This document shows, piece by piece, positions 31,720 to 53,913 of a stretch of DNA of 64,000 bases. The notes under the pieces were generated by a model. The model saw nothing but the letters and a program-made list of their open reading frames with translations. It was not told the origin of the DNA and did no database searches. A program made the position numbers and the translations under genes. The DNA lies in contig OZ242195.1 in assembly GCA_965205975.1 (NCBI GenBank), positions 1,776,643 to 1,840,642 on the forward strand. The letters run 5' to 3'. The stretch comes from Candidatus Latescibacterota bacterium (GTDB lineage Bacteria; Latescibacterota; UBA2968). Position 1 is the first letter of the stretch, and every line of letters starts with the position of its first letter.

Positions 31720-31751
31720 ACGACTCTCCAGCTATTTGGGTTTTGATATTT

Positions 31752-31921
31752 CAATATACGACGTGAGGTAATCCCCCGGTGGAAGCTGGATAATTGAAAA
31801 CGAAATAAATGAAATAATCACCATTTTGGGAATCATCTACAACAGGCGTTTGATAATGAGGACGAGCATGTAAAAATTTCCTAGAGGTAAAAAACAACCA
31901 CAAAAACTATCCGCAGATGAA
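31752..31921 (-). pseudogene. decayed duplicate of the oppB 5' end and leader
   Basis: Minus strand reads ATG CTC GTC CTC ATT ATC AAA CGC CTG TTG TAG (MLVLIIKRLL*), versus MLILIVKRLLWMIP in the real gene. TGG is changed to TAG and a 10-nt insertion lies in the leader. Confidence 0.75.
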
Positions 31922-32074
31922 CGCAGATAAAAGGCGAAAGGGCAATCCAACCCCGAATCAGGATTTACAGGATTAAATGAGGGCAGGATTAGCGGTCATC
32001 AACGAACACAGGCACACACGTCATTCCTGTGCATGCCGTAGGCAGGGCTTAATAGCCACTCTCAGGAATCCAAG

Positions 32075-40409: not shown

Positions 40410-40450
40410 CACTATCCTCCTTCCGCTATTTTGAATCCTGATCAAACAAA

Positions 40451-40478
40451 TGTATAGCACAAAAACCACGTTTGTCAA
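40451..40478 (-). promoter_or_regulatory. candidate sigma70-type promoter for the 556-aa gene cassette
   Basis: Minus strand TTGACA (40478-40473), 16-nt spacer, TATACA (40456-40451), about 40 nt upstream of the ATG. Confidence 0.4.
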
Positions 40479-41435: not shown

Positions 41436-42203
41436 ATGCCAGCAGCACTCGTCACCGGATCCAGCAGAGGCATAGGCAGAGGCATAGCTTTCTGCCTTGC
41501 CGACGCGGGCTACGACATCCTCGTCAACTACGCGGGCAATCTAACCGCAGCAGAAGAAACCGCAACAGGTATTCGAGAACGCGGACAAAACGTCCACATT
41601 TGTCAGGGCGACGTAACCCGCATAGAAGACAGCAAACGCCTCGTAGATACCACACTCGACGCCTTTGGTCGCCTCGACATGCTCGTCAACAACGCCGGCA
41701 TTGCCCCTCGCGTACGCGCCGACATCCTCGAAGCCACCCCAGAAAGCTACGAAGACGTCATGAACACCAACCTCAAAGGACCCTACTTCTTAACCCAATA
41801 CGCGGCAAACCACATGATCGCACTCAAAAAACAGGAAAAAATACAAACACCGCGCATCGTCGTCATCACCTCCATATCGGCCTACACCTCTTCAACGGCA
41901 CGCGGCGAATACTGCGTCTCAAAAGCTGGCCTGAGCATGATGACGCGCCTATTTGCCGACCGGCTCGCAGAACACGGCATCCCCGTCAATGAAATCCAGC
42001 CAGGCATCATCCAGACCGACATGACAGGACCCGTCAAAGAAAAATACGACCACCTGATAGCCGATGGTCTGACCCCCATCCGCAGGTGGGGACAACCCGA
42101 AGACATCGGCAAAGCCGTAGCGGCCATTGGACTCGGCTATTTCGACTTCACAACCGGCGCGGCAATCCCGGTTGACGGCGGATTCCACATGCACCGGCTC
42201 TGA
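41436..42203 (+). CDS. SDR family oxidoreductase (3-oxoacyl-ACP reductase-like)
   Basis: TGSSRGIGRGIA cofactor motif, NNAG, and the catalytic YCVSK. Confidence 0.85.
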   Translation: MPAALVTGSSRGIGRGIAFCLADAGYDILVNYAGNLTAAEETATGIRERGQNVHICQGDVTRIEDSKRLVDTTLDAFGRLDMLVNNAGIAPRVRADILEATPESYEDVMNTNLKGPYFLTQYAANHMIALKKQEKIQTPRIVVITSISAYTSSTARGEYCVSKAGLSMMTRLFADRLAEHGIPVNEIQPGIIQTDMTGPVKEKYDHLIADGLTPIRRWGQPEDIGKAVAAIGLGYFDFTTGAAIPVDGGFHMHRL

Positions 42204-42220
42204 TTTAGCAGCCAGTCTAT

Positions 42221-42253
42221 ATACCCCAAATGGCCTTTGATTTTTTGGGGTAT
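42221..42253 (+). terminator. hairpin after the SDR gene (weak terminator candidate)
   Basis: ATACCCCAAA (42221-30) pairs with TTTGGGGTAT (42244-53). The T-run is part of the stem rather than trailing it. Confidence 0.3.
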
Positions 42254-42348
42254 GTAGTTGACATATTTTCTCTTATATCGTACCTTATAAGTAAGCATAA
42301 TAAGTAATCATAAACATCGCAATTCTACGCTTTCAAGTGAGGACGCAA

Positions 42349-43125
42349 ATGCTGAAGCGCTTTTTTAGTAAAAATGCTGAACCAGAGAATGGTACAACCA
42401 AAGAAAGACAAATCCACATCGAAGGGCAAGACGAGCACGTTCAGGAAGCCATGGACCTCCTCGCACAAGAGGATCAAGATGATCTCGACGAAGCTCTTGA
42501 CGAAGTTAATGAAACCGTGCGAGAAGCCGCCAGAGCCTCACTGCGCGACCTGAGACTCATGCAAGAAGGCCACTGTCCATCCTGTGGTCACAAAACACTG
42601 CGTCAATTTCTCTTTACCACTGTGTGTTCCAGTTGCGGTTGGTTTTCATTTATCTCGCCCGAAGAAGGCAAATCTCACATCCACCTGCAAAGTGGACGCA
42701 CCATCGAATGCGGCACCACATTTGACACCAAAGGAGACTTTGTACTCGGCATCACAAATGGCGTTGTTCGCGCCAAGGTACCCAAAGAAAATGTCGAATA
42801 CATCGAATTTGCATGGACTGCTGAAGAAATCCAGCGCAAACGCGAATCCCGCGCAAAAGAGGAAACGGGAATATGTAGCTGGTGCGAAAAAGCGCTCGCA
42901 GATGATGGTGATGAAAATATCATTGTCTATGCGGCCTTCGGCACCACCCAGATGCGCTATGTCTTCTGTTCAAACAAATGCAACGAAGCCTTCCAAAAAC
43001 AATACCCCATTCGCATTCACAAAAATTGCTACGAACGCTCCTGCCTCGATTGCGACCTGTGCGACAAACGCTACCTGGGCGAAGACGAGACCTTTCTCAA
43101 ATTGCTCGAGCAAGGGAAAGTCTGA
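42349..43125 (+). CDS. Cys-rich protein with acidic N-terminus, a zinc ribbon and a TRASH/MYM-like C-X2-C...C-X3-C motif
   Basis: CPSCGHK...CSSCG ribbon. CSWCEKAL-(21 aa)-FCSNKCNEAF. Further CYERSCLDCDLCDK. ATG 42349 with GAGGA 5 nt upstream (the track start is GTG 42337). Confidence 0.55.
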   Translation: MLKRFFSKNAEPENGTTKERQIHIEGQDEHVQEAMDLLAQEDQDDLDEALDEVNETVREAARASLRDLRLMQEGHCPSCGHKTLRQFLFTTVCSSCGWFSFISPEEGKSHIHLQSGRTIECGTTFDTKGDFVLGITNGVVRAKVPKENVEYIEFAWTAEEIQRKRESRAKEETGICSWCEKALADDGDENIIVYAAFGTTQMRYVFCSNKCNEAFQKQYPIRIHKNCYERSCLDCDLCDKRYLGEDETFLKLLEQGKV

Positions 43126-43155
43126 TAAGGCGGTCACTCATCAACCTAAAAAATC

Positions 43156-43195
43156 AGTCCCCCATCGCAATAATACGCGATGGGGGACTTTTATT
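43156..43195. terminator. bidirectional rho-independent terminator between convergent genes
   Basis: 13-bp perfect stem AGTCCCCCATCGC / GCGATGGGGGACT. TTTATT follows on the plus strand and TTTTTT follows on the minus strand. Confidence 0.7.
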
Positions 43196-43226
43196 ATGTC
43201 CTCAAAACCGCTTTGCATAAAGTCTT

Positions 43227-43829
43227 TTACTCGAGTTCAAATACACCCCACTTTGAGTCGGCTGAGTCCTTGAGGATTTCCCTGTCCGAAAGCAGGACAT
43301 GAAATCTGTATCGACTGCCATTAACAGGCATCTGAGCATAGATCGAATAGCAACGCCTACAAGCCGTTATCTTGATCTCTGTGTCGCAGGGGATACAGTC
43401 CCAAACCCCCAAAGGTTTTCTTTGACATCGCAGGCACTCGATTTGTTCGATCAGATTTTTGTTGCGTTCCCGAAATTTTTCCAACTCGCCAGAAACCACC
43501 ATGGGACCTATATACGATACACCTGCAGAGTTGCACACCTTGCAGAATGACCTTTCGTCACCATCCATCGTTCGCCTTTCGCCCGAAAAGTCGTCGTACA
43601 CCAGCAGGCAATGCCCACACGCGAAAATGCCCTCTTCGTCTGGCTCGCGGTCCTCAAAACGCCTGAAATACGCCAGAATATCGGACTTATCACTATCGGG
43701 CAATTTCTCGAATGGCTGCATTTTGGTTCCACATTCATGGCAGCAACAGCCAAAGAAACCCTTTGCCCATCGGCCAAAAGTTCCAAGGATTACGATAATG
43801 AGAATGGCTAAAATGATAAACGCTTCCAC
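43227..43829 (-). CDS. membrane-anchored multi-CxxC (zinc-ribbon-rich) protein
   Basis: N-terminal TM (EAFIILAILIIVILGTF) then six CxxC pairs (CHEC, CGHC, CKVC, CLRC, CIPC, CRRC). GTG start with GAGGAA upstream. Confidence 0.55.
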   Translation of the reverse strand: MEAFIILAILIIVILGTFGRWAKGFFGCCCHECGTKMQPFEKLPDSDKSDILAYFRRFEDREPDEEGIFACGHCLLVYDDFSGERRTMDGDERSFCKVCNSAGVSYIGPMVVSGELEKFRERNKNLIEQIECLRCQRKPLGVWDCIPCDTEIKITACRRCYSIYAQMPVNGSRYRFHVLLSDREILKDSADSKWGVFELE

Positions 43830-44024
43830 AGTCGGTTCCTCATGTTAGTAGTTATCACACTTGCAACCACACCTGCTTACCTGTAGCTATGAGCTTTGCG
43901 ATGGCGCACTGATTTTTCCAGAATTGGTAAATTGCATTAGAAAATTGAACATCTATCTCTTTCCTCTGATCTACGGGTTTTTAGCTCTATCCATCCCCGT
44001 TTTCACAGGGACATGCCTGCGGCT

Positions 44025-44246
44025 CTATTCAATCAATTCTTTACCACCGTGAACGCGAATATCAACTTCAGGCAAGTGTTTATTCAGAATGTCTATGATG
44101 TGATCCTTCGGTCCGACAAAGATCATGATCATATTTTCTGGCACAAAAAACTTCTCGAGATAGTCACGTACCTCATCATCGGTAACCGACGTAGAACCGC
44201 CTTTGTGAGTTGGCGGATTATAGATGGATAAACCGTTGCACGTCAT
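44025..44246 (-). CDS. 73-aa hypothetical protein translationally coupled to the ABC exporter
   Basis: The ATG overlaps the ABC gene stop (ATGA at 44243-44246). No recognisable motif. Confidence 0.45.
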   Translation of the reverse strand: MTCNGLSIYNPPTHKGGSTSVTDDEVRDYLEKFFVPENMIMIFVGPKDHIIDILNKHLPEVDIRVHGGKELIE

Positions 44247-45958
44247 ATACTCGCTGTTTTTTTATTTAAATGAGCATAAACCCCATCTTGCATAGTCAGC
44301 CACTCAGGCGTGCCCTGCTCTGCGATCTGTCCCTCATCCAATACCACAATTTCATCTGCGTTTTGAATGGTCGATAGCCGATGTGCGATGATGATTGTCG
44401 TCCTTCCTTTTCGCACGGTTTTCAATGCTTCTTGAATGTGATATTCAGATTCCATATCCAAGGCGGCAGTAGGTTCATCTAAAATCAAAATGGGCGTGTC
44501 CATCAACAGCACACGCGCCAAGGCAATGCGCTGTTTCTGCCCTTCAGACATCTGCGCCCCTTGTTCTCCTACCAGTGTTTCATATCCTTCGGGCAATGAT
44601 GCGATGAAGTCGTGGATGTACGCAGCCTGTGTTGCAGCCTGAACATCTCGCAAAGGTATGTCGTGTCCAAAGGTCAGGTTGTCCAAAATACTGCCCTGAA
44701 ATAAGGTGCTACCCTGCATGGCGAATCCTACCTGCTGACGGACAGATTTTAAGCGGTAGTTCCGAATATCGTAACCATCAATAGACACATATCCCTCTTG
44801 CGGATCATAAAATCTCGGGATCAATTTGGCAAGTGTTGATTTGCCAGACCCACTCTTGCCGACCAGAGCAATGGTGGTCTGCGCGGGAATGTGCAGGTTG
44901 ATGTGGCGCAAAACGGGTTGGTCTTCTTGATACGAAAAACACACACTGTGAAACCCGATTTCACCTCTCACCTGTGGCAAGGAGGGCATATCAGGACGCT
45001 CCTGTATTTCGGGTTGCAAGTCATAGACCTCAAAAAAGCGATTGATGCGAACCAATGCCATTTCAACCTGTCCTACGAGACCGATGAGATTGCCGATTGG
45101 ACCGTAGAGATATCCCACATACCCCGAAAAAGCCATATAACTGCCCAGAGAGAGATTGCCGTTTAGAACTTCTGTCCAACCGTACCAGCCATACGCCAAA
45201 GTACCCGCTGTTTTTACCAACGACCCGATAAACCCAAATCCCCCACTTAAATGCGTTGACCGGATTCGCAATTTGGAAACATCAATAAAAATATCTCTGA
45301 TCTTATAGTAAAACGCGGCTTCCAGTCCCAGTGCTTGCACAGTGCGAATGCCCGAAAGCGATTCGTATGATGTGGCAGATGACTCAGCCGAGGCTTCGGT
45401 TAATTTTTTAGACACTCTGCTAAGATATTTCTTTGAAATCATAACCAATACGGTATCGAAAGGTAGTACCGCCAGACTGATCAATGCCAGTTTCCAGTTA
45501 ATATAAAGCAAAATAGGTGGAAAAATGAGCAACTGAAGCGAGTTCATAATCAGGCTGTTCACCATCCCTACGGTGCTATTGACAGAACTATCCATATCTC
45601 TAAATCGAGACAGGATTTCGCCCGTCTGCCGGTTGTCAAAAAAGCTGAAGTCCAGCGATTGTATGTGGGAATAGAGTCGCGATTTGAAATCCAACCCCAT
45701 GTTGACACCCACATAACGCGCGAAATAAGTGCTCAACAGATTTGTGAATCCCAATCCTGTCGAGAGCACAGCACCCAAAATCAGAATAAAGGTCAGGAGC
45801 GTGTAGTCTTTGTGCGGATACACATCATCAATCAAAACCTTAGTGATGTACGGTCCCGGAATTTGCAAAAACATGACCATGATGCCCACGAGAAGAGACT
45901 GAAAGATAAACCGCCAGTAAGGACGGAGCATTTTGATGATTTTGAATATCTGGCGCAT
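44243..45958 (-). CDS. T1SS/bacteriocin-exporter-type ABC transporter (permease + ATPase), no N-terminal C39 peptidase domain
   Basis: 571 aa. TMD resembling HlyB/CvaB-type exporters (LIDDVYPHKDYTLL...FFDNRQTGEILSRF). Walker A GKSGSGKST, signature MSEGQKQR (variant), Walker B LILDEPTAALD. Confidence 0.85.
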   Translation of the reverse strand: MRQIFKIIKMLRPYWRFIFQSLLVGIMVMFLQIPGPYITKVLIDDVYPHKDYTLLTFILILGAVLSTGLGFTNLLSTYFARYVGVNMGLDFKSRLYSHIQSLDFSFFDNRQTGEILSRFRDMDSSVNSTVGMVNSLIMNSLQLLIFPPILLYINWKLALISLAVLPFDTVLVMISKKYLSRVSKKLTEASAESSATSYESLSGIRTVQALGLEAAFYYKIRDIFIDVSKLRIRSTHLSGGFGFIGSLVKTAGTLAYGWYGWTEVLNGNLSLGSYMAFSGYVGYLYGPIGNLIGLVGQVEMALVRINRFFEVYDLQPEIQERPDMPSLPQVRGEIGFHSVCFSYQEDQPVLRHINLHIPAQTTIALVGKSGSGKSTLAKLIPRFYDPQEGYVSIDGYDIRNYRLKSVRQQVGFAMQGSTLFQGSILDNLTFGHDIPLRDVQAATQAAYIHDFIASLPEGYETLVGEQGAQMSEGQKQRIALARVLLMDTPILILDEPTAALDMESEYHIQEALKTVRKGRTTIIIAHRLSTIQNADEIVVLDEGQIAEQGTPEWLTMQDGVYAHLNKKTASI

Positions 45959-46325
45959 TGGATCGTACCGTGGTATTTCAAAAGAAGGTCTATAACGAAT
46001 GCCGAAAGCGTGTCATCTATCAGGACTGGCGTTGTGCCTATACGTTGACGAGCCTGCCGCAGAGTACAGTACTTTGATATAGTGGCCTATGAAAACCGGT
46101 TTGCAGACTGCCCTACCTCCGGTAGGCAGGCACGCGGGCAAGAGGTAGATAGGCGCGAACACAACATAGCGATCCACCGTCGAGAAATTATTATGGGTGT
46201 TCAACACACTCCTATAAGACAATACGGTAAGCATTGAACACCCAATGATCAGAGGTCATATATTTTGTTCTTCTAAGCGGCTATCAATGATTAAATCCGA
46301 AATTCATTTGATCTTTTGACATCCG

Positions 46326-46688
46326 CTAATTACCCTCATCCTTCTTCTTTTCTTCCTCCTCTTCATCCTCTGTTTCTATTTCCGGTACAGGCGGTTCCTT
46401 TGGAGGACTTTCATCGTGGCAAGCCACCCAACAAGATTGATATGATGAGGCTAATCCAGTAACGGTCGCCGCGATGGCTGCGCCACCTGGTCCACCGCCA
46501 CCAAAACCTGCCCCAAGAGCAGATGCCAACATGTTTGATCCAACTGTATTCACGGCATCTTCATGCACTTCTTGAACTGCTTGGTTACGCTGATGAATTT
46601 CTAAACTTCTTTCGAGAGCCCTTTGCTCAGCAATAGGCGTTTCAGTGGTATCCACCTCCACTGTCGGCATAGGGAGATTCAGATTCAT
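46326..46688 (-). CDS. 120-aa Gly-rich protein with two Cys and a strongly acidic tail (candidate exported peptide or accessory factor)
   Basis: ATG with AAGGAG 7 nt upstream. Central SALGAGFGGGGPGGAAIAATVTGLASSYQSCWVAC and C-terminal ETEDEEEEEKKKDEGN. Confidence 0.55.
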   Translation of the reverse strand: MNLNLPMPTVEVDTTETPIAEQRALERSLEIHQRNQAVQEVHEDAVNTVGSNMLASALGAGFGGGGPGGAAIAATVTGLASSYQSCWVACHDESPPKEPPVPEIETEDEEEEEKKKDEGN

Positions 46689-46723
46689 GGTTTACTCCTT
46701 TCTTGAAAAGTGATGACCTCTGA

Positions 46724-47473
46724 TCAAAAAATAAAAAATTCTCTATATTGAAATACCACTATAGCGACCAAATTCGCAATAGAATGAAACACAAAGCTTG
46801 CGGTTAGTGAATTTGTACGTTCTACTAAGTATGCTGTTACCAAACCATATAAGAATACAAAAGGAAGGTTTGTAACAGCTAACCAGTATTGAAAATGGTA
46901 TGCTGTAAAAATGATGGCTGAAATTAAAACGGCATTTCGTTCGAGATAACGTTTACGTAAGGTTCTGTACAACATCCCTCGAAAGTACAATTCTTCTTGA
47001 AATGGAATTAAAAATCCCATCACTATTATTTGGTTATAAAATATCGCCCCAGAATACTTCGCGGGTATGTTGTCAAAATTTACGATTTTCCAGTTCCATA
47101 TAAGTGACAGGAAAGCACCGAGGATTAAAGCAAAAACGATATCTTGAGTTTGAGGAGCCTGGATACCCCATATTTTCCTGAGTGATAACTTCACTTTTTT
47201 ATATTGCCATATAAGAAATGCAAGAAAGGCAAGTATCAAAACCAATCCGAGATATATTTGCCCAATAAGAACAATATTTTGAACCTTTAAACCCCATCTG
47301 TTGACGTGATTAAAATGTGCCATCAAAAGGCCAAACACGGCAATAACTACGAAACCGATCACACAATATAAAACTAACCAGAGAATTAATCTTTTAATAG
47401 ACCAGGGGAGTTGTAGTCGCTGAGTGCCATCAAATCCCAAATTATTATCTATATCTATTTTGCTATCTTTCAT
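46724..47473 (-). CDS. CPBP family (CAAX-type) intramembrane glutamic endopeptidase
   Basis: Motif 1 FQEELYFRG, motif 2 FTAYHF, motif 3 FVFHSIANL. Multi-TM and very AT-rich. Confidence 0.8.
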   Translation of the reverse strand: MKDSKIDIDNNLGFDGTQRLQLPWSIKRLILWLVLYCVIGFVVIAVFGLLMAHFNHVNRWGLKVQNIVLIGQIYLGLVLILAFLAFLIWQYKKVKLSLRKIWGIQAPQTQDIVFALILGAFLSLIWNWKIVNFDNIPAKYSGAIFYNQIIVMGFLIPFQEELYFRGMLYRTLRKRYLERNAVLISAIIFTAYHFQYWLAVTNLPFVFLYGLVTAYLVERTNSLTASFVFHSIANLVAIVVFQYREFFIF

Positions 47474-47533
47474 GTTCTTCTCGCATGTAAAAGGTGCAGC
47501 TCTCGAAGGCCATAATGAACTTGATTCGCGTCA

Positions 47534-48805
47534 CTATCTACCGCCTCTATCTTCCAACCCATAAATCTCCGGACGCCCAATTTTGCCCACGGTTTTCAAA
47601 AACTTCTTCCACAGCAAGCCAACGATAGGACCGCGCTTTGTCACGATCTTGGCTTCTATACCCATGCCATAAGCAAGCGGACATTCTTTCTCACCATTAG
47701 ATAAATGCGGATCTATCACACTGATCTTCACCGGATAAACAGTGCTCATACCGCCTGGAACGAGACCGGCACCTATGGGTGTAATAGGTTCGGGTTTTCT
47801 CGGCACGTCTGTCACCCTGCCCTCAAAAATCTTGTATTCCATGTGCGGGAAAGCATTCACATATATTCGCACCTTATGTCCCTCTTTCACCTTTGGGATA
47901 TCCACTTCTTGAATCATCACCTCTGCTTGCCAACTGTGCAATTCGGCCAGTTCAATCACGGCTTCACCCGCCTCAATGCGGTCTCCTTCGCGTTTATCCA
48001 AATCGCGTGTCAACACCGTTCCAGAAACAGGTGCGTATATCTTCATCTGTTCCAGACGGGTTTTGATAAGACGATGGCTGACCTCTAATTTTTTGTATGT
48101 CTGCTCCAGCATCTCGTGTTCCTGCTTGCGATTGTCCAGAGCAACCAACCGTCGTTTTGCACGCTCAATTTCTACTTTTGCACCCTCTACCCGCGTCTGG
48201 TGTACCCGAATAGGGATCAACGTATCAACAGGTGGTCGCACACTCCCATCTTCGCGATAAGGCGCGTATTTGCGATAGATCTGGTATTCTTGCCGAACCT
48301 GTTCCAATTGCAACTGCGCGGTCTCATACGCCACTTCAGCCCGCGCTATCTCTGTCTCCAAAACAGCGCGCTCGCGTTGCAATTCTGCGACCAACGCCAC
48401 ACGCCGCCCCTGATTTATTCCCAGTTCATGTTCGAGTTGCTCCAATTCCGTGCGTAAATCGGTATCGTCCAGAGTCAGCATCAAATCACCCTGTGCAATC
48501 TCTTGTCCGTGTTGCACATGAACCGTCTGGATCAAACCTGATCGCTGTGCTTTCACTTCATAACGCGCAGTAGGCTGCAAGCGACCTTGTCCTGCAACCG
48601 TAATTTCCATGCCCAAATGCCAGCCCAAAAGACAGATAAACGCGACCATACTCCCCACAACGCACAAAATAGTGAGCAAGAAATAGCGCACAAACCGGAA
48701 CCCAATTCCCGAAGTTGAGAGGGCTTCTCGCGTCTCCGTGTTTGCAAAATCTCCCTCTTTTTGGGGATAGCCATTGAATCGTACAACCTGTTCACTGTGT
48801 ACCAT
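47534..48805 (-). CDS. HlyD family secretion adaptor (periplasmic membrane-fusion protein)
   Basis: N-terminal TM, lipoyl-like hairpin (VKAQRSGLIQTVHVQHGQEIAQGDLMLTLD), long coiled coil and C-terminal beta-barrel region. Confidence 0.8.
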   Translation of the reverse strand: MVHSEQVVRFNGYPQKEGDFANTETREALSTSGIGFRFVRYFLLTILCVVGSMVAFICLLGWHLGMEITVAGQGRLQPTARYEVKAQRSGLIQTVHVQHGQEIAQGDLMLTLDDTDLRTELEQLEHELGINQGRRVALVAELQRERAVLETEIARAEVAYETAQLQLEQVRQEYQIYRKYAPYREDGSVRPPVDTLIPIRVHQTRVEGAKVEIERAKRRLVALDNRKQEHEMLEQTYKKLEVSHRLIKTRLEQMKIYAPVSGTVLTRDLDKREGDRIEAGEAVIELAELHSWQAEVMIQEVDIPKVKEGHKVRIYVNAFPHMEYKIFEGRVTDVPRKPEPITPIGAGLVPGGMSTVYPVKISVIDPHLSNGEKECPLAYGMGIEAKIVTKRGPIVGLLWKKFLKTVGKIGRPEIYGLEDRGGR

Positions 48806-48861
48806 AACTCATTCAGCTCACTGTTGAAAGTGAATTTCGACCAGACAAATGAACATTCAAT

Positions 48862-49581
48862 TCAAACATCTTCCGAAAGCGTTTGAATTTCTCCGCGCAT
48901 AACTTTTGTGCGGTACTCGGTAGGCGGCATTCCGTGTATGGTCTTGAAAGCCTCGCGCAAACGATTTGGTGAAAGAAACCCGCACGCACTTGCAATTTCA
49001 TAGACGAATACTGAAGGTTCTTTTATCAAATGCTGTGCCCGTGAAACCCTTATCTCTCGCAATTTTTCTGAGAACGTCTTGCCCACATGTTTTTTGAACA
49101 ATTTGCAACCGTGCGATCTGGAAAATCCGAAATGGGCCATGAGGTCATCAAAGCTCAGCCCTGGGTCGCTGTAATGCGCCTCCAAAAACGACTCCAGACT
49201 CCTTTTTATCCAATCTTGTGATGGCATGCACTTCTTGACCTTTGCCAAAAATTTATCCTTGCGGATCGGTTTATCCAGCACGCCTACAGCACCCAGCTTG
49301 AGCATCCTTTCCATTAATTCCAGGCGTTCCATCCCGCCCATGATCAGGACAGGTGTTTGAATTTCCTCTACCTTTAGACAAGTCAAAAGAGATATCGCAT
49401 CGAGGTCTCTTATATCTTTGTCAACCACAGCGAGATCAATCTTCTCACGTCTCAAAGTTTTAAACCCTGCTACGCCATCTCTCGCTGTGAATACGTCGTA
49501 AAGTTCATCATTCAAGTATTCACAAAGAGTCGATATAACGCAGCTATCGCGATCTACAATTAAAACTTTCTTCGCATTCAT
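48862..49581 (-). CDS. response regulator with AraC-type HTH output domain
   Basis: REC domain (KVLIVDRD ... DLAVVDKD ... LDKP) followed by AraC HTH (FGFSRSHGCKLFKKHVGKTFSEKLREIRV...HGMPPTEYR). No histidine kinase gene nearby. Confidence 0.8.
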   Translation of the reverse strand: MNAKKVLIVDRDSCVISTLCEYLNDELYDVFTARDGVAGFKTLRREKIDLAVVDKDIRDLDAISLLTCLKVEEIQTPVLIMGGMERLELMERMLKLGAVGVLDKPIRKDKFLAKVKKCMPSQDWIKRSLESFLEAHYSDPGLSFDDLMAHFGFSRSHGCKLFKKHVGKTFSEKLREIRVSRAQHLIKEPSVFVYEIASACGFLSPNRLREAFKTIHGMPPTEYRTKVMRGEIQTLSEDV

Positions 49582-50046
49582 ATTTTCCCCATACGCTAAA
49601 AATTTCTACAACCATATTCAAAACATGCTCTTTGCACGAAAACAGATATATGCAACCTGTGTGCCAATTTAAATTTTTCAAGCAATAATACATGTAACCT
49701 ATTATCTTTACTTCATATAGAGTTATTACCGCACAAAATCCAGACCGAATATCAAATTAAAAAGTGAAAATATTGTTCACTTATTCCCGATCAATTGAAC
49801 ATTACTTGCACCTTATGCGCTTTAATTCGCATTGACAATCACCCTTTGGGTCGCTACCTTAGTTTAGTCTTCTCAAGACCTATCTTGAGATACTCACCGC
49901 CGCTGACAGATGACTTGCCACGGTCTTGTCGGCGGCTCTTTTATGATAATACTGTCACACCTGAAATTTCAACACAAAAAGTCCCCGCGTATTTGTGATT
50001 TCCACCGCGTATTTCTGTTTTTTTTATTGTTTTTGAGATTAAGCAT

Positions 50047-50078
50047 AAAAAAACTGTGAATGGACTTCCCATTCACAG
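50047..50078 (-). terminator. rho-independent terminator after the ABC exporter pair
   Basis: Perfect 10-bp stem CTGTGAATGG / CCATTCACAG (50054-63 / 50069-78), followed on the minus strand by seven T. Confidence 0.7.
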
Positions 50079-50131
50079 TTCGCAAAAATATGGGGCGGGC
50101 ACGGGGCACCGCCCTTACGCAGGCCTGCGCT

Positions 50132-50185
50132 ACATCTATCTATATCTCGCCTTTCATCTGCGTCTATCTGCGTCCATCTGCGGAT
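50132..50185. repeat. decamer array (ATCTGCG type, 3 good plus 2 degenerate units) overlapping the 3' end of the ABC gene
   Basis: catctatctatatctcgcctttcatctgcgtctatctgcgtccatctgcgg. It encodes the terminal ...GHPQMDADRRR* on the minus strand. Confidence 0.8.
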
Positions 50186-52133
50186 GCCCTTGTAATTGCT
50201 TCTTTCCCTTTTCAACCTCTTCCACCGCCGTCATAATCCCATCAATAAATTCATCTGCTATATCGTCTTTCTGCTTTTGCTGCTGTTCGTAAAGCAAGCG
50301 ATAGACCTCGCACTCTTCCAGCAAATCGTCGTGGCCTCCCCAGCCCGCCATGCGACCGTTGTCCAGCACCAGAATGCGATCCGCCCGCATCGCCGTAGAA
50401 ATTCTGTGCGTAATCACAAAAGTCGTGCGCCCCTCCATCAAATGATCCAGCGTCTCTTGAATCTTCGCCTCCGTCTTTGCATCCAGTGCTGAAGTCGTAT
50501 CGTCCAAAATCAGAATACTGGGATCGGTGACAACAGCCATCGCAAAAGCCAAACGCTGTTTTTGACCGCCCGATAAATTGGTACCGCGCTCCTCGACCGG
50601 CGCTTCGTATTTCTCTGGCAGCGTCATAATAAAATCGTGCAACTCCGCCGCTTTAGCCGCATCCATCACCTGTTCGGGCGTGGTATAGGGCTGACCGTAG
50701 CGAATATTATCGGCAATCGTCCCGGAAAAAAGAACGGGTTCCTGGGGCACCATACTGATGTGCTGTCGCAGTGAAGAAATTTTGACATCTTGTATATCGT
50801 AATCGTCCAGAATAATTCTCCCCTCTGTGGGTTCATAAAGACGCATCAACAAACTCACCAGCGTACTCTTCCCCGAACCCGAAGGCCCAACCACGGCCAC
50901 CGAAGTGCCTGGCCGCACGACAAACTTGAGATCTCGAAGAACGTAATCGCCCGCATCTGTATAGCGAAACGACACATTGCGAAACGACACCCGCCCGCGC
51001 ACTTTGTCGAGGGTCTTCGCATCTTCCCTATCCTGAATAATCACCTCTTCATCCAGCACCTCAAACACGCGACTGATCACCACCAGCATCTGTTGCAACG
51101 TAGCATTCACATTGGCAAGAGCAACCAGTGGCGAAAAGAGATTCCCCATCGACATAGAAAAATAAACCAATTCCCCAACCGTCATCACACCGCCGCGAAC
51201 CTGTAATGCGCCATAATAAAAGATCAGACCCATTGCAACCCCCCCCACAACCGAACAGACTGACCCCAGACCAGAACTCAAAACAGACTGTTTGACGCCC
51301 AAACGATACAACCCGATCAGCCGCCTGAAAAAGTCCCGAAACTCCCGTCTTTCTCGCGCATAAGACAGGATGAGACGAATCCCCTTTGAGCGTTCTTCCA
51401 ACAGCGCAGAAACCTCGCTATAATCCTCTCGAAACCGCATAAAAACATTTGCTATCGGACGCTGAAACACCTTATAAGTCACGACATACGCGGGCAATGC
51501 AACAAAAGCCATCAGCGCGAGCTTGACATCAATCGTAAACAGAATCGCCGTACCCATCAAAATGCGCGCAACATGCCGCAGCGTCTCTACAAAAGTCGTC
51601 GTAATTTCGCTCTGCAATAACCCCACATCATCCAAAATGCGCGCCATAATCCGCCCGGTTTGCTGGCGATCAAAAAACGTCATCTGCAACTGCTGCACTT
51701 TCTCGTGCAGCGCAAGGCGGATGCGGAAAACAATCCGCTGCCCCACATAGGAGATGTTATAGGTATAAAACCAGTTGAGTGTGGCAAAAAACGATCTCAC
51801 GACCAGATAGAGAATGAAAATCCACCCCAACCATGCCAGTTTTTCCGTGCGCGTTTTGGGCAGCATTATCCCGCCTTCTTTGCCCAGCCCCGGAATCGTC
51901 GCCTGTGGATCGCGCTTTGGGCGCCTCTCCTCCTGAATCAAAGACTGCATGTGGGCTTCTGAAACGACTTCACCCGCGGGCTTGAGTTGCAAGACCTCAT
52001 CAACCGTAATTTTTGAAATAAACCCGAGCAAAAACGTATAGGACGACGTAATAGTGGCCATCGCAATGACCATCAACATGCGCCCCCAATACGGCTTGAT
52101 ATATAAAATGATAAATCGCTTTAAGTTTTCCAT
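50154..52133 (-). CDS. ABC transporter ATP-binding/permease (second half of a heterodimer-type exporter pair)
   Basis: Start at ATG 52133 (MENLKRFIILYIKPYWGRML), 4 nt after the upstream stop. Walker A GPSGSGKST, LSGGQKQR, LILDDTTSALD. Confidence 0.85.
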   Translation of the reverse strand: MENLKRFIILYIKPYWGRMLMVIAMATITSSYTFLLGFISKITVDEVLQLKPAGEVVSEAHMQSLIQEERRPKRDPQATIPGLGKEGGIMLPKTRTEKLAWLGWIFILYLVVRSFFATLNWFYTYNISYVGQRIVFRIRLALHEKVQQLQMTFFDRQQTGRIMARILDDVGLLQSEITTTFVETLRHVARILMGTAILFTIDVKLALMAFVALPAYVVTYKVFQRPIANVFMRFREDYSEVSALLEERSKGIRLILSYARERREFRDFFRRLIGLYRLGVKQSVLSSGLGSVCSVVGGVAMGLIFYYGALQVRGGVMTVGELVYFSMSMGNLFSPLVALANVNATLQQMLVVISRVFEVLDEEVIIQDREDAKTLDKVRGRVSFRNVSFRYTDAGDYVLRDLKFVVRPGTSVAVVGPSGSGKSTLVSLLMRLYEPTEGRIILDDYDIQDVKISSLRQHISMVPQEPVLFSGTIADNIRYGQPYTTPEQVMDAAKAAELHDFIMTLPEKYEAPVEERGTNLSGGQKQRLAFAMAVVTDPSILILDDTTSALDAKTEAKIQETLDHLMEGRTTFVITHRISTAMRADRILVLDNGRMAGWGGHDDLLEECEVYRLLYEQQQKQKDDIADEFIDGIMTAVEEVEKGKKQLQGHPQMDADRRR

Positions 52134-52137
52134 AACC

Positions 52138-53913
52138 TCAACTCGCCATCGCCTCCACAGCCTCTTCAATAGAACCCGCGGCCTGCTGTTCGTAAAGCTG
52201 GCGATACTTTCCATCGGGTATTTGCAACAACTCGCTGTGCGTCCCCTGCTCAATAATCTCGCCGTGATCCATCATAACAATAATATCCGCATTGACAATC
52301 GTCGATAATCGGTGTGCAATGGCAAAGGACGTGCGCTCCTTTAACACCCTGGTCATCGCCTTTTGTATCAAAGCTTCCGATAGGGAATCGAGTGACGAAG
52401 TCGCTTCATCGAGAATTAAAACCGACGGATTGGTCAGCACGGCTCTCGCAATGGCGAGGCGCTGTTTTTCTCCCACAGACAGTTTAATCCCATCTTTCCC
52501 CAGCATCGAATCGTAACCCTCGGGCGTACGCATAATAAATTCGTGAATCTCGGCAATACGCGCCGCCTCAATCAACTCGGCATCTGTGGCATCTGCGCGG
52601 CCATATAGCAAATTTTCTCGAATCGTCCCATCAAACATCACCGAATCTTGCAACACCTGTCCAATTTGCGTGCGCAAGGTGCGCAACTTCACATCTCTCA
52701 AATCGTGACCATCAATTGTAATACGCCCGTCCTTAACATCGTAAAAGCGCATCAACAAACTCGTCAAAGTCGTCTTTCCGCATCCCGTATGCCCCACCAG
52801 CGCCACCATCTGCCCCGGCTGCACCTCGAGATTGATCCCCTTCAAAACAGGCTCACCCTCTTTGTACTCAAAATGTACATCTTCAAATTTAATATGTCCT
52901 TTTATCGGCGGCAGTTCAACGGCATCTTCCTTATCCTTAATCTCTATGGGAAAATCTAAAATTTCCAAAACGCGATCCACAGACACCATCACGGCTTGAA
53001 GGCGCATGGCAATTTGCGTGAGATTGAGAACAGGCTGAAACATCCGACTTGAATAAGAAAAAAAGGCCATCACAGCCCCATAAGTCATTTCACCCTCAAT
53101 CACGTAATAACAGCCCAAACAAAAAATCACCGTATTGCGAAGTCCCGACACCCCCCAGGAGCCAGCCATATAGCCAGCGCGATTTGTGGCAGTCTGCATC
53201 GCCGCATCCAAACTCTGGTGCGTATCTTCCGCAAATGCGCGGTGTTCTCTGCGCTCTCGTCCATAAGATTTTACGAGTTGCACCCCGGACAACCGCTCTT
53301 GTAGTCCAACCGACACCTGATCCATTTTTCTACGCCAGAGACTGTACGACTCCCTCATTGGCGTGCGCCACCCGTAATAATTAAAAAAATACAGGGGCAT
53401 CAACAAAAGCAGCAGACACGCCATCTTCCAATTCAAGCCCATGCACAGCGCAAGCGCCACCCAGAACGACACAAAATCGACAAGAATGCCCAGCATACGC
53501 GATGTCACCATACTGCGCACACTCGCAATATCAGACATAATGCGCGACATAATTTTGCCCGTACCCATCTCGTCGTAAAAGCGCATGGGCAATCTCAACA
53601 TGTGCTCATACGTAAACTTTCGCATACTCGTCGTTATCCCCCACCCCACATAGGCATTGGTAAATGAGACCCAAACGCGCATCGCAGCGGACATGATAGG
53701 CAGGCAAATCGAAATAAACAGAAGCACTTCCAGCAACTGCCAGTTGCCCAGGGTAATGACATCATCAATGATAAACTTCATCACCAGAGGAGGCAACATG
53801 CTCAGTGCCGTCATTGTCGCCGTCAGGCACACCAGCAAAATCAGGCGCGATTTAAAAGGCGTGACAAAATGCGCGAGCTTGCGCAGCTTGTCAGTATTGC
53901 TCTCATCTGCCAT
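52138..53913 (-). CDS. ABC transporter ATP-binding/permease (first half of a heterodimer-type exporter pair)
   Basis: 591 aa. Walker A GHTGCGKTT, signature LSVGEKQR, Walker B LILDEATSSLD. Confidence 0.85.
   Translation of the reverse strand: MADESNTDKLRKLAHFVTPFKSRLILLVCLTATMTALSMLPPLVMKFIIDDVITLGNWQLLEVLLFISICLPIMSAAMRVWVSFTNAYVGWGITTSMRKFTYEHMLRLPMRFYDEMGTGKIMSRIMSDIASVRSMVTSRMLGILVDFVSFWVALALCMGLNWKMACLLLLLMPLYFFNYYGWRTPMRESYSLWRRKMDQVSVGLQERLSGVQLVKSYGRERREHRAFAEDTHQSLDAAMQTATNRAGYMAGSWGVSGLRNTVIFCLGCYYVIEGEMTYGAVMAFFSYSSRMFQPVLNLTQIAMRLQAVMVSVDRVLEILDFPIEIKDKEDAVELPPIKGHIKFEDVHFEYKEGEPVLKGINLEVQPGQMVALVGHTGCGKTTLTSLLMRFYDVKDGRITIDGHDLRDVKLRTLRTQIGQVLQDSVMFDGTIRENLLYGRADATDAELIEAARIAEIHEFIMRTPEGYDSMLGKDGIKLSVGEKQRLAIARAVLTNPSVLILDEATSSLDSLSEALIQKAMTRVLKERTSFAIAHRLSTIVNADIIVMMDHGEIIEQGTHSELLQIPDGKYRQLYEQQAAGSIEEAVEAMAS

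What the first reader, a model, noticed from the sequence alone, without database searches (positions are those of the whole stretch)
44025..49581. AT-rich island encoding a T1SS-like export set with CPBP protease, Gly-rich small protein and an orphan REC-AraC regulator
All genes are on the minus strand and visibly more AT-rich than the flanks, with the CPBP gene especially so. The order is response regulator with AraC output, HlyD adaptor, CPBP intramembrane protease, 120-aa Gly-rich protein, a 367-bp gap, an HlyB/CvaB-like ABC exporter lacking the C39 peptidase domain, and a stop/start-overlapping 73-aa ORF.

Established knowledge: HlyD plus ABC pairs export microcins and bacteriocins (for example CvaAB for colicin V). 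CPBP proteins are frequent bacteriocin immunity or maturation factors.

Inference: this is a horizontally acquired peptide-toxin production/immunity or self-protection locus. Its architecture is atypical: no C39 domain, no obvious double-glycine leader, no TolC-like gene, and REC-AraC control.
Basis: partly seen in the sequence, partly recalled or inferred. Interest (0 to 1): 0.65.

Follow-up and report, generated by a model that had tools for sequence, protein, structure and literature searches.

The report
Swappable peptide cassette on conserved exporter
An uncultured sponge-associated bacterium (Latescibacterota) has a conserved two-part export pump carrying a fast-evolving, swappable pair of genes, a membrane protease and a previously undescribed 120-residue peptide, which looks like a new bacteriocin-type competition system, though no function has been tested.

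Summary

Corrections:
- Only the CPBP and small-gene pair is a compositional outlier. ABC and HlyD have normal composition.
- The 73-aa ORF is the 3' remnant of an M16 peptidase gene at a rearrangement junction.

Thirty related loci come mostly from Candidatus Latescibacterota MAGs and sponge metagenomes.
- ABC and HlyD are 89-95% identical (dN/dS 0.04-0.15).
- The CPBP (54-85%) and small protein (31-86%) diverge together (rho 0.69; dN/dS 0.19-0.78).
- The pair sits in two different positions, has been exchanged between loci, and is replaced elsewhere by other small-protein plus CPBP cassettes.

The small protein belongs to an unannotated family of about 30 members.
- It is predicted to be a helical hairpin.
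- Only H42, C86, C90 and H91 are invariant.
- Its mRNA is closed by a conserved 5'-3' stem followed by a hairpin.
- A variant is about 35-fold more abundant than its neighbours in one sponge metatranscriptome.

Best reading: a bacteriocin or microcin-like exported peptide with a cognate CPBP, in a reduced, leaderless, enzyme-free version. Toxicity, immunity and export are untested.

The parts
48862..49581 (-). Response regulator with REC receiver and AraC-type HTH output. No kinase gene is adjacent.
   Evidence: Pfam Response_reg 7.4e-17, HTH_18 1.2e-17, HTH_AraC 7.1e-13. It is the first gene of the backbone in all related loci. Two types exist, about 88% or about 45% identical to the window's, and type is independent of cassette type.
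49582..50081 (-). Upstream non-coding region, with a terminator-like hairpin of the preceding ABC gene (50051-50081) and a sigma-70-like promoter match (49943-49972).
   Evidence: Consensus scans. The region is 76-89% identical to the corresponding region of related loci. Promoter function is not shown.
47534..48805 (-). HlyD-family membrane-fusion (periplasmic adaptor) protein, 423 aa.
   Evidence: Pfam HlyD_3 3.1e-16, HlyD_D23 1.7e-13. Best solved relative is the MFP of the HlyB/D complex, 8dck_C. It is 89-93% identical across loci, dN/dS 0.08-0.15.
46724..47473 (-). CPBP (Rce1-like) glutamic intramembrane protease, 249 aa. First gene of the variable cassette.
   Evidence: Pfam Rce1-like 69.2 bits. 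Motifs EExxxR (160-165), FxxxH (189-193) and HxxxN (230-234) are invariant in 13 cassette CPBPs. GC 0.345, GC3 0.32. It is 54-85% identical across loci, dN/dS 0.19-0.64.
46706..46726 (-). 5' arm of the stem that brackets the small ORF. The 14-nt core TGATCAGAGGTCAT (46713-46726) begins at the CPBP stop codon and lies upstream of the RBS.
   Evidence: Inverted repeat I3. It closes the ORF in the MFE fold. Compensatory and G.U changes occur across loci. Sequence-unrelated brackets occur in L028 and L029.
46326..46688 (-). 120-aa small protein, the proposed exported peptide: an acidic N-terminal helix, a Gly/Ala-rich helix, C-x3-C-H then SPPKEP, and an acidic tail (residues 100-120).
   Evidence: AGGAG RBS. 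The family has 29 aligned members with only H42, C86, C90 and H91 invariant. AF2 predicts a helical hairpin, pLDDT 79. No Pfam, NCBIfam or PDB relatives. A variant forms a metatranscriptome contig at depth 172 against 5 or less for neighbours.
46246..46266 (-). 3' arm of the bracket stem (core ATGACCTCTGATCA, 46246-46259).
46192..46243 (-). Conserved 52-nt hairpin immediately after the bracket stem (GGGTGTTCAATGC...GTGTTGAACACCC). It is part of a roughly 110-nt block that is more conserved than the coding sequence.
   Evidence: It occurs once in the window (0 expected) and in 11 of 11 fetched Latescibacterota-clade loci that show sequence 3' of a family small gene. It is absent from 16 other loci, including distant members L028-L030. 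Fold -41.6 kcal/mol, z -2.5. Almost no covariation.
44243..45958 (-). ABC exporter half-transporter (TMD + NBD, 571 aa) with no N-terminal peptidase or C39-like domain.
   Evidence: Pfam ABC_membrane 21-287, ABC_tran 350-498. Below every NCBIfam cutoff. Best bacterial solved relative is PCAT1, aligned from its residue 159. It is 90-95% identical across loci, dN/dS 0.04-0.07.
44025..44246 (-). 3' remnant of an M16-family peptidase gene, marking a rearrangement junction at the ABC stop codon. It is probably not a functional gene.
   Evidence: It aligns to residues 380-446 of a 446-aa protein and 421-487 of a 487-aa protein with M16 + M16_C domains in L012 and L011 (82-84% identity). Pfam M16_C fragment.

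Best explanation
The locus is a lineage-specific peptide-export system of Candidatus Latescibacterota (sponge and marine symbionts). It has two layers.

Layer 1, the conserved backbone:
- A REC-AraC regulator, a HlyD-type adaptor and an ABC exporter without a peptidase domain.
- It is under strong purifying selection.

Layer 2, the variable cassette:
- A catalytically intact CPBP intramembrane protease, immediately followed by a 120-aa peptide gene.
- The cassette evolves fast, co-varies internally, is AT-rich at synonymous sites, and is moved between loci by recombination.

Proposed mechanism (inferred, not shown):
- The regulator switches on the operon.
- The small-gene segment of the mRNA is closed by a 5'-3' stem followed by a 3' hairpin. 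This makes it more stable or more abundant than the rest of the transcript.
- The peptide is a helical hairpin whose four invariant residues (H42, C86, C90, H91) come together as a probable His2Cys2 metal site, or a disulfide with histidines.
- The ABC/HlyD pump exports the peptide, presumably with an outer-membrane partner encoded elsewhere.
- The cognate CPBP protects the producer from that particular peptide variant, or processes it. This resembles the Abi/CPBP proteins of Gram-positive bacteriocin loci.

The window's copy is a reduced, mosaic version:
- Its peptide lacks the N-terminal leader found in relatives that carry maturation enzymes (QhpE-like S8 protease fused to a TIGR04066-like domain, ACP, BtrH-like protein, GNAT).
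- It carries an acidic C-terminal tail instead.
- Everything downstream of the ABC gene has been replaced at a junction marked by an M16 gene remnant.
For: Shown:
- Domain content.
- Co-conservation. CPBP then small gene, with a 35-67-bp spacer, in 13 of 15 contexts, including a 28%-identical member. HlyD/ABC are adjacent wherever the contig allows.
- Mean pairwise identity: ABC 93%, HlyD 92%, CPBP 66%, small protein 51%. Spearman correlation: small vs CPBP 0.69, CPBP vs ABC 0.10, CPBP vs HlyD -0.18.
- dN/dS: ABC 0.04-0.07, HlyD 0.08-0.15, CPBP 0.19-0.64, small 0.30-0.78. Cassette dS is 0.08-0.11 against exporter dS of 0.33-0.48 in L001/L011/L018, which indicates recent cassette exchange.
- The cassette sits either between HlyD and ABC or after ABC. 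ABC 3' fragments are left behind in L002 and L018. HlyD-ABC junctions without a cassette occur in the same metagenomes.
- The window's small gene is mosaic: the core resembles L002 and the tail plus downstream resembles L006, with the junction in the CH-DESPPKEP motif.
- Other loci carry unrelated small proteins plus other CPBPs at the same position.
- One genome has four loci with different cassettes.
- CPBP catalytic motifs are invariant.
- The family is tiny, with a four-residue invariant signature.
- The AF2 model is a hairpin, with H42 and C86 each 22 residues from the turn.
- The bracket stem and hairpin.
- Metatranscriptome depth of 172 against 5 or less for neighbours.
- The best bacterial solved relatives of the pump are a bacteriocin exporter (PCAT1) and the HlyD of the haemolysin system.

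Background:
- Abi/CPBP proteins are implicated in bacteriocin self-immunity (Kjos et al. 2010, as cited in PMC8692603).
Against: - No assay of any kind exists. Export, toxicity and immunity are all inferred.
- The ABC and HlyD score below every curated NCBIfam cutoff. The best ABC hit is MsbA-like, so the substrate class is not established by homology.
- The peptide is strongly acidic (net charge -16), has no recognisable leader or secretion signal, and its Gly/Ala segment is only weakly hydrophobic (maximum KD 1.0).
- Tail-less, leader-bearing relatives use an almost identical pump, so neither the tail nor the leader can be the sole export signal.
- An invariant H...C-x(2-4)-C-H signature is not typical of bacteriocins. 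It could indicate a cofactor or metal protein instead.
- Two distant family members have no CPBP immediately upstream.
- Within the close clade, covariation in the stem is not statistically significant.
- Contig depth is a poor measure of expression, and the abundant contig is a variant, not the window's allele.
- Pairwise statistics are not phylogenetically independent.
Confidence: 0.55

Rival explanations
1. Processing rather than immunity. The CPBP is the maturation protease of the small protein, trimming its N-terminus or acidic tail. The exported product is a signal or another non-toxic secreted factor, and the REC-AraC regulator forms the response arm. This would be analogous to the CPBP protease MroQ acting on the AgrD pheromone precursor in staphylococci (own knowledge).
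For: - CPBP catalytic motifs are strictly conserved.
- The CPBP precedes the peptide gene and is tightly coupled to it.
- CPBP clades track the peptide core, as expected for enzyme-substrate specificity.
- A response regulator is always present.
- Leaderless forms begin exactly at the conserved F.T.[EQ].D.T.V motif that follows the leader in other members. This suggests a defined processing point.
Against: - No kinase or receptor is present in any locus.
- Regulator type does not track cassette type.
- Up to four different cassettes in one genome, high dN/dS and cassette exchange fit antagonism better than signalling, although pherotype diversification could look similar.
- At 120 aa the peptide is large for a pheromone.
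Confidence: 0.2
2. Cofactor or metal protein delivery. The small protein is a His2Cys2 metal-binding, or haem-binding (CXnCH plus a distal His), periplasmic or extracellular protein that lacks a Sec signal. A dedicated ABC exporter translocates it, as QhpF does for the QhpC subunit of quinohaemoprotein amine dehydrogenase. It is not a toxin.
For: - The only invariant residues are H42, C86, C90 and H91. Cys spacing is 2, 3 or 4, followed by His, which matches the known range of haem-c attachment motifs (own knowledge).
- The hairpin geometry brings them together.
- Relatives encode a QhpE-like S8 protease (162 bits against a cutoff of 165).
- Qhp precedent: a leader-bearing small Cys protein, an S8 leader protease, an efflux-type ABC exporter and an inducible regulator (PMC7876137).
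Against: - There is no partner enzyme subunit, radical-SAM enzyme or cytochrome-maturation gene in any locus.
- Variable Cys spacing among close homologs is unusual for haem sites.
- Rapid diversification, cassette swapping, several alternative cassettes lacking the motif at the same position, and a co-varying CPBP are not expected for a housekeeping cofactor protein.
Confidence: 0.15
3. The pump exports a non-peptide substrate (lipid, glycolipid or drug; MsbA- or DevB-like), and the small ORF and CPBP are unrelated passengers or decaying remnants.
For: - The top NCBIfam hit of the ABC is MsbA (405.9 bits).
- HlyD also matches RND, EmrA and DevB adaptors.
- The window's locus shows signs of rearrangement, in the M16 remnant.
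Against: - All curated cutoffs are missed, including MsbA's (405.9 against 602).
- Most related loci with readable sequence after the ABC gene carry a small protein gene plus a CPBP-type gene directly beside the pump. Exceptions are the truncated or distant loci L009 and L025-L027.
- All five genes are intact, with dN/dS below 1.
- The small gene is transcribed at high level in a metatranscriptome.
- Relatives add peptide-maturation enzymes.
Confidence: 0.05

Closest known systems
Bacteriocin-immunity regions of Gram-positive class II bacteriocin loci (pneumococcal blp, L. plantarum pln) with Abi/CPBP immunity proteins
   Same: - A conserved ABC transporter and accessory protein next to a hypervariable region of small peptide genes paired with CPBP/Abi membrane proteins.
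- The CPBP catalytic motifs are retained.
- A response regulator controls the locus.
- Strains carry different cassette combinations (own knowledge; Kjos 2010 as cited in PMC8692603).
   Different: - A diderm phylum (Latescibacterota).
- The ABC has no C39 peptidase, and the peptide has no double-glycine leader.
- The peptide is 120 aa, acidic, and has an H...CxnCH signature.
- The CPBP precedes the peptide gene rather than following it.
- The regulator has an AraC rather than a LytTR output, and no kinase or pheromone gene is present.
Class II microcin systems of Enterobacteria (colicin V: CvaA/CvaB/CvaC/Cvi with TolC)
   Same: - A Gram-negative host.
- An MFP plus ABC pair exporting a Gly-rich, anionic or neutral ribosomal peptide with a C-terminal Cys pair.
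- The outer-membrane partner is not encoded in the locus (own knowledge).
   Different: - No C39 domain and no GG leader.
- The partner protein is a 249-aa CPBP protease rather than a small Cvi-type immunity protein.
- The locus is chromosomal, has a modular cassette, and occurs in multiple copies.
McjD-type and QhpF-type ABC exporters (peptidase-less exporters of mature ribosomal peptides)
   Same: - A half-transporter without an N-terminal peptidase domain, dedicated to a ribosomally made small peptide or protein that lacks a Sec signal.
- In the Qhp system an S8 protease removes a leader before export (PMC7876137). A QhpE-like S8 occurs in relatives of this locus.
   Different: - The window has no S8 protease, no radical-SAM enzyme and no leader.
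- QhpC is an enzyme subunit, not a polymorphic peptide.
- A HlyD adaptor and a CPBP are present here.
Type I secretion systems with peptidase-less ABC (PrtD/HasD type) and C-terminal secretion signals
   Same: - An ABC without an N-terminal domain, plus a HlyD-type adaptor.
- The substrate candidate has an acidic, unstructured C-terminal extension that is shared between otherwise unrelated small proteins served by the same pump.
   Different: - Scores are far below the T1SS subfamily cutoffs.
- No RTX/GG repeats and no TolC-like gene.
- Tail-less relatives use a pump that is about 92% identical.
CPBP-based C-terminal sorting systems (myxosortase MrtC/MrtP, MrtS, MrtJ)
   Same: - A CPBP protease genetically paired with a specific substrate.
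- Weak HMM similarity to MrtS, MrtJ and Mrt_core.
   Different: - All scores are below cutoff.
- The substrate has no tripartite C-terminal sorting signal (motif, TM helix, basic cluster).

Membership tests
CPBP / Rce1-like glutamic intramembrane proteases (PF02517) | HMM match above the gathering score. | tested here: met
   69.2 bits against a cutoff of 22.4.
CPBP / Rce1-like glutamic intramembrane proteases (PF02517) | Three catalytic motifs: EExxxR, FxxxH and HxxxN/D. | tested here: met
   EELYFR at 160, FTAYH at 189, HSIAN at 230. They are invariant in 13 cassette CPBPs.
Peptide cleavage/export ABC transporters (PCAT; TIGR01193 bacteriocin_ABC) | N-terminal C39 peptidase domain. | tested here: not met
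   The TMD starts at residue 21. Alignments to TIGR01193 and PCAT1 begin at their residues 144 and 159. No upstream in-frame extension is possible.
Peptide cleavage/export ABC transporters (PCAT; TIGR01193 bacteriocin_ABC) | Score above the curated cutoff. | tested here: not met
   356.2 against 523.85.
Type I secretion system (HlyB TIGR01846 / HlyD TIGR01843 / TolC) | ABC and adaptor above the subfamily cutoffs. | tested here: not met
   HlyB 381.7 against 725.55. HlyD 95.8 against 208.65.
Type I secretion system (HlyB TIGR01846 / HlyD TIGR01843 / TolC) | An outer-membrane TolC-like partner. | tested here: inconclusive
   None was found among the ORFs scanned at 34183-58551 or in related loci. 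It may be encoded elsewhere, as in E. coli.
Class II microcins / class II bacteriocins | A double-glycine leader (LSxxELxxIxGG-type) cleaved by the transporter. | tested here: not met
   No conserved GG/GA/GS site with the expected hydrophobic spacing in the 29-member alignment (by inspection).
Class II microcins / class II bacteriocins | Antibacterial activity of the peptide and specific immunity. | not testable with these tools
   Requires expression and inhibition assays.
NHLP / Nif11 leader-peptide RiPP export systems | Precursor matches the NHLP or Nif11 leader HMMs, and the transporter or adaptor matches the NHLM_micro models. | tested here: not met
   No NCBIfam or Pfam hit for any of the small proteins. 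NHLM_micro_ABC2 314 against 709. NHLM_micro_HlyD 39.9 against 156.
Qhp-type maturation and export (QhpC/D/E/F) | QhpE protease, QhpD radical-SAM enzyme and a leader-bearing Cys-rich QhpC. | tested here: not met
   A QhpE-like S8 occurs only in relatives (162.2 against 165) and is absent from the window (tblastn). No radical-SAM gene is present in any locus.
c-type cytochromes | A CXXCH-type haem attachment motif plus Sec-dependent export. | tested here: inconclusive
   C-x(2-4)-C-H is invariant and a distal His is present. No hydrophobic signal peptide (by inspection). Haem binding is not testable here.
Two-component response regulators with AraC output | REC domain plus AraC-type HTH. | tested here: met
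   Response_reg 62 bits, HTH_18 64.4 bits. A candidate phospho-acceptor Asp54 and Lys104 are present by inspection. The usual Thr/Ser after beta-4 appears to be Gly (not aligned formally).
Known anti-phage defence systems (PADLOC) | A specific match of the components. | tested here: not met
   Only generic ATPase similarity for the ABC, and nothing for the other five proteins.

The most novel reading that the evidence does not exclude
The small proteins define a new class of exported helical-hairpin peptides with a His2Cys2 (H...CxnCH) clamp.
- They are used by sponge-symbiont Latescibacterota as a polymorphic, cassette-shuffled toxin system, with CPBP proteases as cognate immunity or processing partners.
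- Alternative pro-sequences keep them inactive: an N-terminal leader read by a previously undescribed ACP-dependent maturation set (QhpE-like S8 fused to TIGR04066, ACP, BtrH-like ligase, GNAT), or an acidic C-terminal tail.
- A conserved 5'-3' mRNA bracket sets peptide dosage.
- The extended loci would then be a new RiPP family, and the window's locus its enzyme-free form.
Probability: 0.3. Interest if true: 0.75.

Novelty: new variant of a known kind. Interest (0 to 1): 0.6.

Why it matters
- Latescibacterota and Poribacteria are uncultured, abundant sponge symbionts, and how they compete is essentially unknown.
- This locus offers a concrete, testable candidate for inter-strain antagonism. 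It has a conserved pump that could be used as a genomic marker, and a library of naturally diversified peptide and CPBP pairs for specificity studies.
- It would extend CPBP-linked bacteriocin biology from Firmicutes to a diderm candidate phylum.
- It adds an unannotated peptide family with a very sparse but strict His/Cys signature.
- It points to an apparently undescribed ACP/BtrH-like/S8-TIGR04066 peptide-maturation gene set in relatives.
- The ORF-bracketing mRNA stem is conserved in architecture across unrelated sequences. It is a simple example of how one gene in an operon may be expressed far above its neighbours.

Tried and rejected
- Rfam scan of 42000-51000 at E up to 1: no hits.
- Pfam, NCBIfam, a PDB sequence profile and Foldseek-PDB gave nothing for the small protein.
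- Metagenome (JGI) scan with the C[YW]x[SA]CH[DN][QE]SP pattern returned only two chance matches.
- Literature searches for Latescibacteria bacteriocins and for DUF1611/BtrH found nothing directly relevant. Kjos 2010 is not held.
- Double-glycine leader and Sec signal: looked for by eye in the alignments and not found.
- Integron-attC-like or mobile-element reading of the conserved 3' block: no integrase, no flanking direct repeats, and no tRNA near the locus. G.U-preserving changes favour an RNA role, so this was set aside but not excluded.
- Whole-island horizontal transfer: rejected on composition and on conservation of the backbone.
- The 73-aa ORF at 46013-46234 inside the gap overlaps the hairpin and has no credible family. 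It was treated as non-coding.
- Covariation test of the bracket stem within the close clade: 93.7% paired, but not better than shuffles (101 of 500) because there is too little variation. The claim rests on the independent L028 and L029 brackets.
- A contig in DNA run X5 joins 43855 to 50155, so the whole locus would be absent. Only 24 nt support one side, which is too weak to call an empty site.

Full report
**1. What is in the sequence**

- REC + AraC regulator, 48862-49581.
- HlyD adaptor, 47534-48805.
- CPBP/Rce1-like protease, 46724-47473.
- ABC exporter, 44243-45958. Its transmembrane domain starts at residue 21.
- A 120-aa ORF, 46326-46688, with a good AGGAG ribosome-binding site and no family match.

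The ABC aligns to HlyB, bacteriocin-ABC and PCAT1 only from their residues ~137-159, so it has no C39 domain. The ABC and HlyD score below every curated NCBIfam cutoff. The ABC's top hit is MsbA-like, 406 bits against a cutoff of 602. The 367-bp gap and the ATGA stop/start overlap are real.

No kinase or TolC-like gene lies among the ORFs scanned between 34183 and 58551. The neighbours are two other ABC half-transporters, HisRS, AspRS, an MBL-fold protein, an SDR and a DDE transposase.

**2. Composition**

The window GC is 0.504, the island 0.451 and the flanks about 0.49. Per gene, only two features are outliers:
- the CPBP (GC 0.345, z -5.0; GC3 0.32);
- the third codon positions of the small gene (GC3 0.37, z -2.9).

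ABC, HlyD and REC-AraC lie within the spread of other genes. The same contrast is seen in every related locus. Cassette genes have GC3 of 0.24-0.43, while the exporter genes are near 0.50. The "AT-rich island" is therefore really an AT-rich two-gene cassette.

**3. The 73-aa ORF**

It is 82-84% identical to the last 67 residues of 446- and 487-aa M16 + M16_C proteins that are intact in two relatives. There the gene lies upstream of a Cys-rich 200-aa gene and the REC-AraC gene. DNA similarity of the window to other loci breaks at 44229/44227, exactly at the ABC stop codon. The ORF is a gene remnant marking a rearrangement or deletion junction.

**4. Source and relatives**

The small protein has 9 homologs in the 5.8-billion-protein collection. 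A profile search of 1.84 billion representatives finds only 24 proteins, 23 of them 100-140 aa and one, a 1275-aa protein, probably a chance match. Contexts were recovered for many of them.

A scan of GTDB species genomes with the HlyD protein returned 20 loci. Nineteen are titled Latescibacterota or Latescibacteria and one Poribacteria. Runs holding the window's sequence are sponge and marine metagenomes.

**5. Architecture across loci**

The backbone is REC-AraC, HlyD and ABC, often preceded by IDH and YceI genes. After it, or inserted in it, comes a variable region:
- (a) CPBP plus the small-protein family studied here.
- (b) An unrelated 140-170-aa small protein plus TPR, another CPBP and a GNAT.
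- (c) Another unrelated small protein of about 148 aa plus a 262-aa CPBP-like protein and a TPR protein.

Many loci then continue with an S8-DUF1611 fusion, an ACP and a BtrH_N-like protein. Cassette (a) lies after the ABC in six loci (L001, L002, L003, L011, L018, L020). It lies between HlyD and ABC in five (the window, L004, L006, L007, L021).

Further signs of reshuffling:
- Fragments of the ABC 3' end are left after the cassette in L002 and L018.
- DNA contigs from the same metagenomes join HlyD directly to ABC, or join ABC to the CPBP.
- One genome, OZ244847.1, has four loci with different cassettes.

**6. Evolutionary pattern**

| Gene | Mean pairwise identity | dN/dS |
|---|---|---|
| ABC | 93% | 0.04-0.07 |
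| HlyD | 92% | 0.08-0.15 |
| CPBP | 66% | 0.19-0.64 |
| Small protein | 51% | 0.30-0.78 |

Divergence of the small protein and the CPBP is correlated (Spearman 0.69). CPBP divergence is unrelated to that of ABC (0.10) or HlyD (-0.18). The pairs are not phylogenetically independent, so the p-values are not meaningful.

In L001, L011 and L018 the cassette's synonymous divergence (0.08-0.11) is 3-6-fold lower than that of the flanking exporter genes (0.33-0.48). The cassette was therefore exchanged after the exporters diverged.

The window's small gene is itself mosaic.
- The CPBP and peptide core match L002 at 84-88% nt identity.
- The tail, intergenic block and ABC match L006 at 85%.
- The junction lies in the conserved CH-DESPPKEP codons at about 46393-46422.

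CPBP clades follow the peptide core, not the tail.

**7. The small protein**

The 29-member alignment shows this layout:
- An optional basic N-terminal leader ending in AY[SA]GEE.
- An F.T.[EQ].D.T.V motif, which is exactly where leaderless members begin.
- H42.
- A Gly/Ala-rich stretch of about 30 residues.
- C86-x(2-4)-C90-H91.
- Optionally SPPK.P and an acidic tail, PPVPEIETEDEEEEEKKK.

Only H42, C86, C90 and H91 are invariant.

AlphaFold2 gives a helical hairpin (mean pLDDT 79.4, pTM 0.49). The helices are 18-62 and 66-88, the turn is at GGGGP, and a short helix lies in the tail. H42 and C86 are each 22 residues from the turn. I infer that the four invariant residues meet, but I could not measure this because no coordinates were available.

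No structural or sequence relatives were found in the PDB. The window's protein has a net charge of -16 and no strongly hydrophobic segment.

Within the 10 Latescibacterota-clade loci examined, members with the leader end in SPPK.PGG. Members without the leader carry the tail. Three more distant members have both.

Leader-bearing precursors sit in loci with the maturation enzymes. Leaderless ones sit in loci without them, or where the enzymes accompany another leader-bearing peptide. The acidic tail motif also ends the unrelated type (c) proteins. It is therefore a module tied to the shared machinery rather than to one core.

**8. RNA features**

A block of about 110 nt immediately 3' of the small gene is more conserved than the gene itself. 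It contains a 52-nt hairpin at 46192-46243.
- The hairpin motif occurs once in the window, with 0 expected by chance.
- It is found in 11 of 11 fetched Latescibacterota-clade loci that show sequence 3' of a family small gene.
- It is absent from 16 other loci, including the distant members L028-L030.

The small ORF is also bracketed by an inverted repeat. The 5' arm is TGATCAGAGGTCAT at 46713-46726, starting at the CPBP stop codon. The 3' arm is ATGACCTCTGATCA at 46246-46259.

The minimum-free-energy fold of the 551-nt transcript closes the whole ORF with this stem, followed directly by the hairpin (-176 kcal/mol, z -4.3, 0 of 100 shuffles as stable).

Evidence from comparison across loci:
- In the close clade the stem is 93.7% paired, with two compensatory pairs and several G.U substitutions. 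There is too little variation to beat the shuffle control, which did as well in 101 of 500 trials.
- Two distant homologs with unrelated flanking sequence have the same architecture as their top-ranked inverted repeat. L029 has 17 nt at 94%. L028 has 18 nt at 94%, followed by a terminator-like hairpin.

In one sponge metatranscriptome a variant of the small gene forms a contig at word depth 172. It is 94% identical over 179 nt and 83% over a further 48 nt. Contigs matching the CPBP, HlyD and ABC genes are at 5 or less. Contig depth is a rough measure, and the contig ends fall at variant branch points, so transcript ends are not mapped.

**9. Enzymes in relatives**

- The S8-DUF1611 fusion matches QhpE (162.2 bits, cutoff 165) and the TIGR04066 peptide-maturation protein (131 bits, cutoff 200).
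- The next genes are an ACP and a weak BtrH_N match.
- In the Qhp system, QhpE removes a 28-residue leader from the small Cys-crosslinked QhpC before an efflux-type ABC transporter, QhpF, moves it to the periplasm (PMC7876137).
- None of these enzymes is encoded anywhere in the 64-kb window (tblastn).

**10. Interpretation**

The data best fit a bacteriocin or microcin-like export system with a conserved pump and a shuffled peptide plus CPBP cassette. The window holds a reduced, leaderless, enzyme-free and rearranged copy.

The CPBP could be an immunity factor, as proposed for Abi/CPBP proteins in Gram-positive bacteriocin loci (Kjos 2010, cited in PMC8692603), or a core-specific processing protease. 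The sequence data cannot separate these two roles.

The invariant H...CxnCH signature keeps open a metal- or haem-protein reading. A non-peptide substrate for the pump is unlikely, given the near-constant presence of small-protein and CPBP genes beside it. PADLOC gives no support for a known defence system.

**11. Verdict**

- It is a new variant of a known kind, built around an unannotated peptide family in an uncultured phylum.
- No function has been tested.

Noticed in passing
L001:10607-16102, L008:13634-19080, L004:3463-9060, L011:14456-18518 (relatives; absent from the window): Many related loci continue with TPR protein, a second CPBP, a GNAT, an S8 protease fused to a DUF1611/TIGR04066-like domain (QhpE-like, 162 bits against a cutoff of 165), an ACP and a BtrH_N-like protein. 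Together with leader-bearing small proteins this looks like an undescribed RiPP-type maturation pathway.
   Followed up: partly
L008:13061-13444, L010:13055-13501, L004:3463-3891, L024:12989-13366: At least three further unannotated small-protein families occupy the same position after the ABC gene. They share with the window's family an N-terminal leader-like motif (K.KP......V.AY.GEE) and/or the acidic C-terminal tail (P.PE..T.D.E.KKK..G[DN]).
   Followed up: partly
window 43227-43829 (-) and 42337-43125 (+): Two CxxC-rich proteins (200 aa with an N-terminal hydrophobic segment, and 262 aa) have no family assignment and are conserved in relatives at 77-88%. They converge on a strong bidirectional terminator-like hairpin at 43156-43189. 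In L011 and L012 the 200-aa gene lies between the M16 gene and REC-AraC.
   Followed up: partly
window 50154-52253 and 52138-53913 (-): Two adjacent ABC half-transporters (699 and 591 aa) whose ORFs overlap by 116 nt as listed, probably a heterodimeric exporter. The 699-aa one has an N-terminal extension of about 140 residues. They are about 94% identical in nt to L012 and L018, so the locus keeps the same upstream neighbour in some genomes.
   Followed up: no
window 37712-38692 (-), 38739-40478 (-), 30873-33901 (-): A DDE transposase (DDE_Tnp_1_3) and neighbouring genes have low GC (0.44-0.46, z -1.6 to -2.2) about 5 kb from the locus. The 579-aa ORF has no Pfam hit.
   Followed up: no
L002:2808-3247, L018:14466-14872, L017:18837-19211: Duplicated fragments of the 3' end of the ABC gene lie after the cassette or at the end of the locus in several relatives. 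These are footprints of recombination that used the ABC gene as a homology arm.
   Followed up: partly
window 43855/50155 (DNA run X5): One metagenome contig joins 43855 to 50155, skipping the whole 6.3-kb locus. This may be an empty-site variant, but only 24 nt support one side.
   Followed up: no
window 46270-46310 (-): The conserved block 3' of the small gene also contains a near-consensus TTGACA (TTGATA in the window), about 17-19 nt upstream of TATGAC. This could be an internal promoter reading into the hairpin and the ABC gene. It was not tested.
   Followed up: no
window 48862-49581 (-): The receiver domain has the candidate phospho-acceptor Asp54 and Lys104, but appears to have Gly where the conserved Thr/Ser normally follows beta-4, and D-R-D instead of the usual acidic pair. 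It may be an atypical, kinase-independent receiver. This is by inspection only.
   Followed up: no
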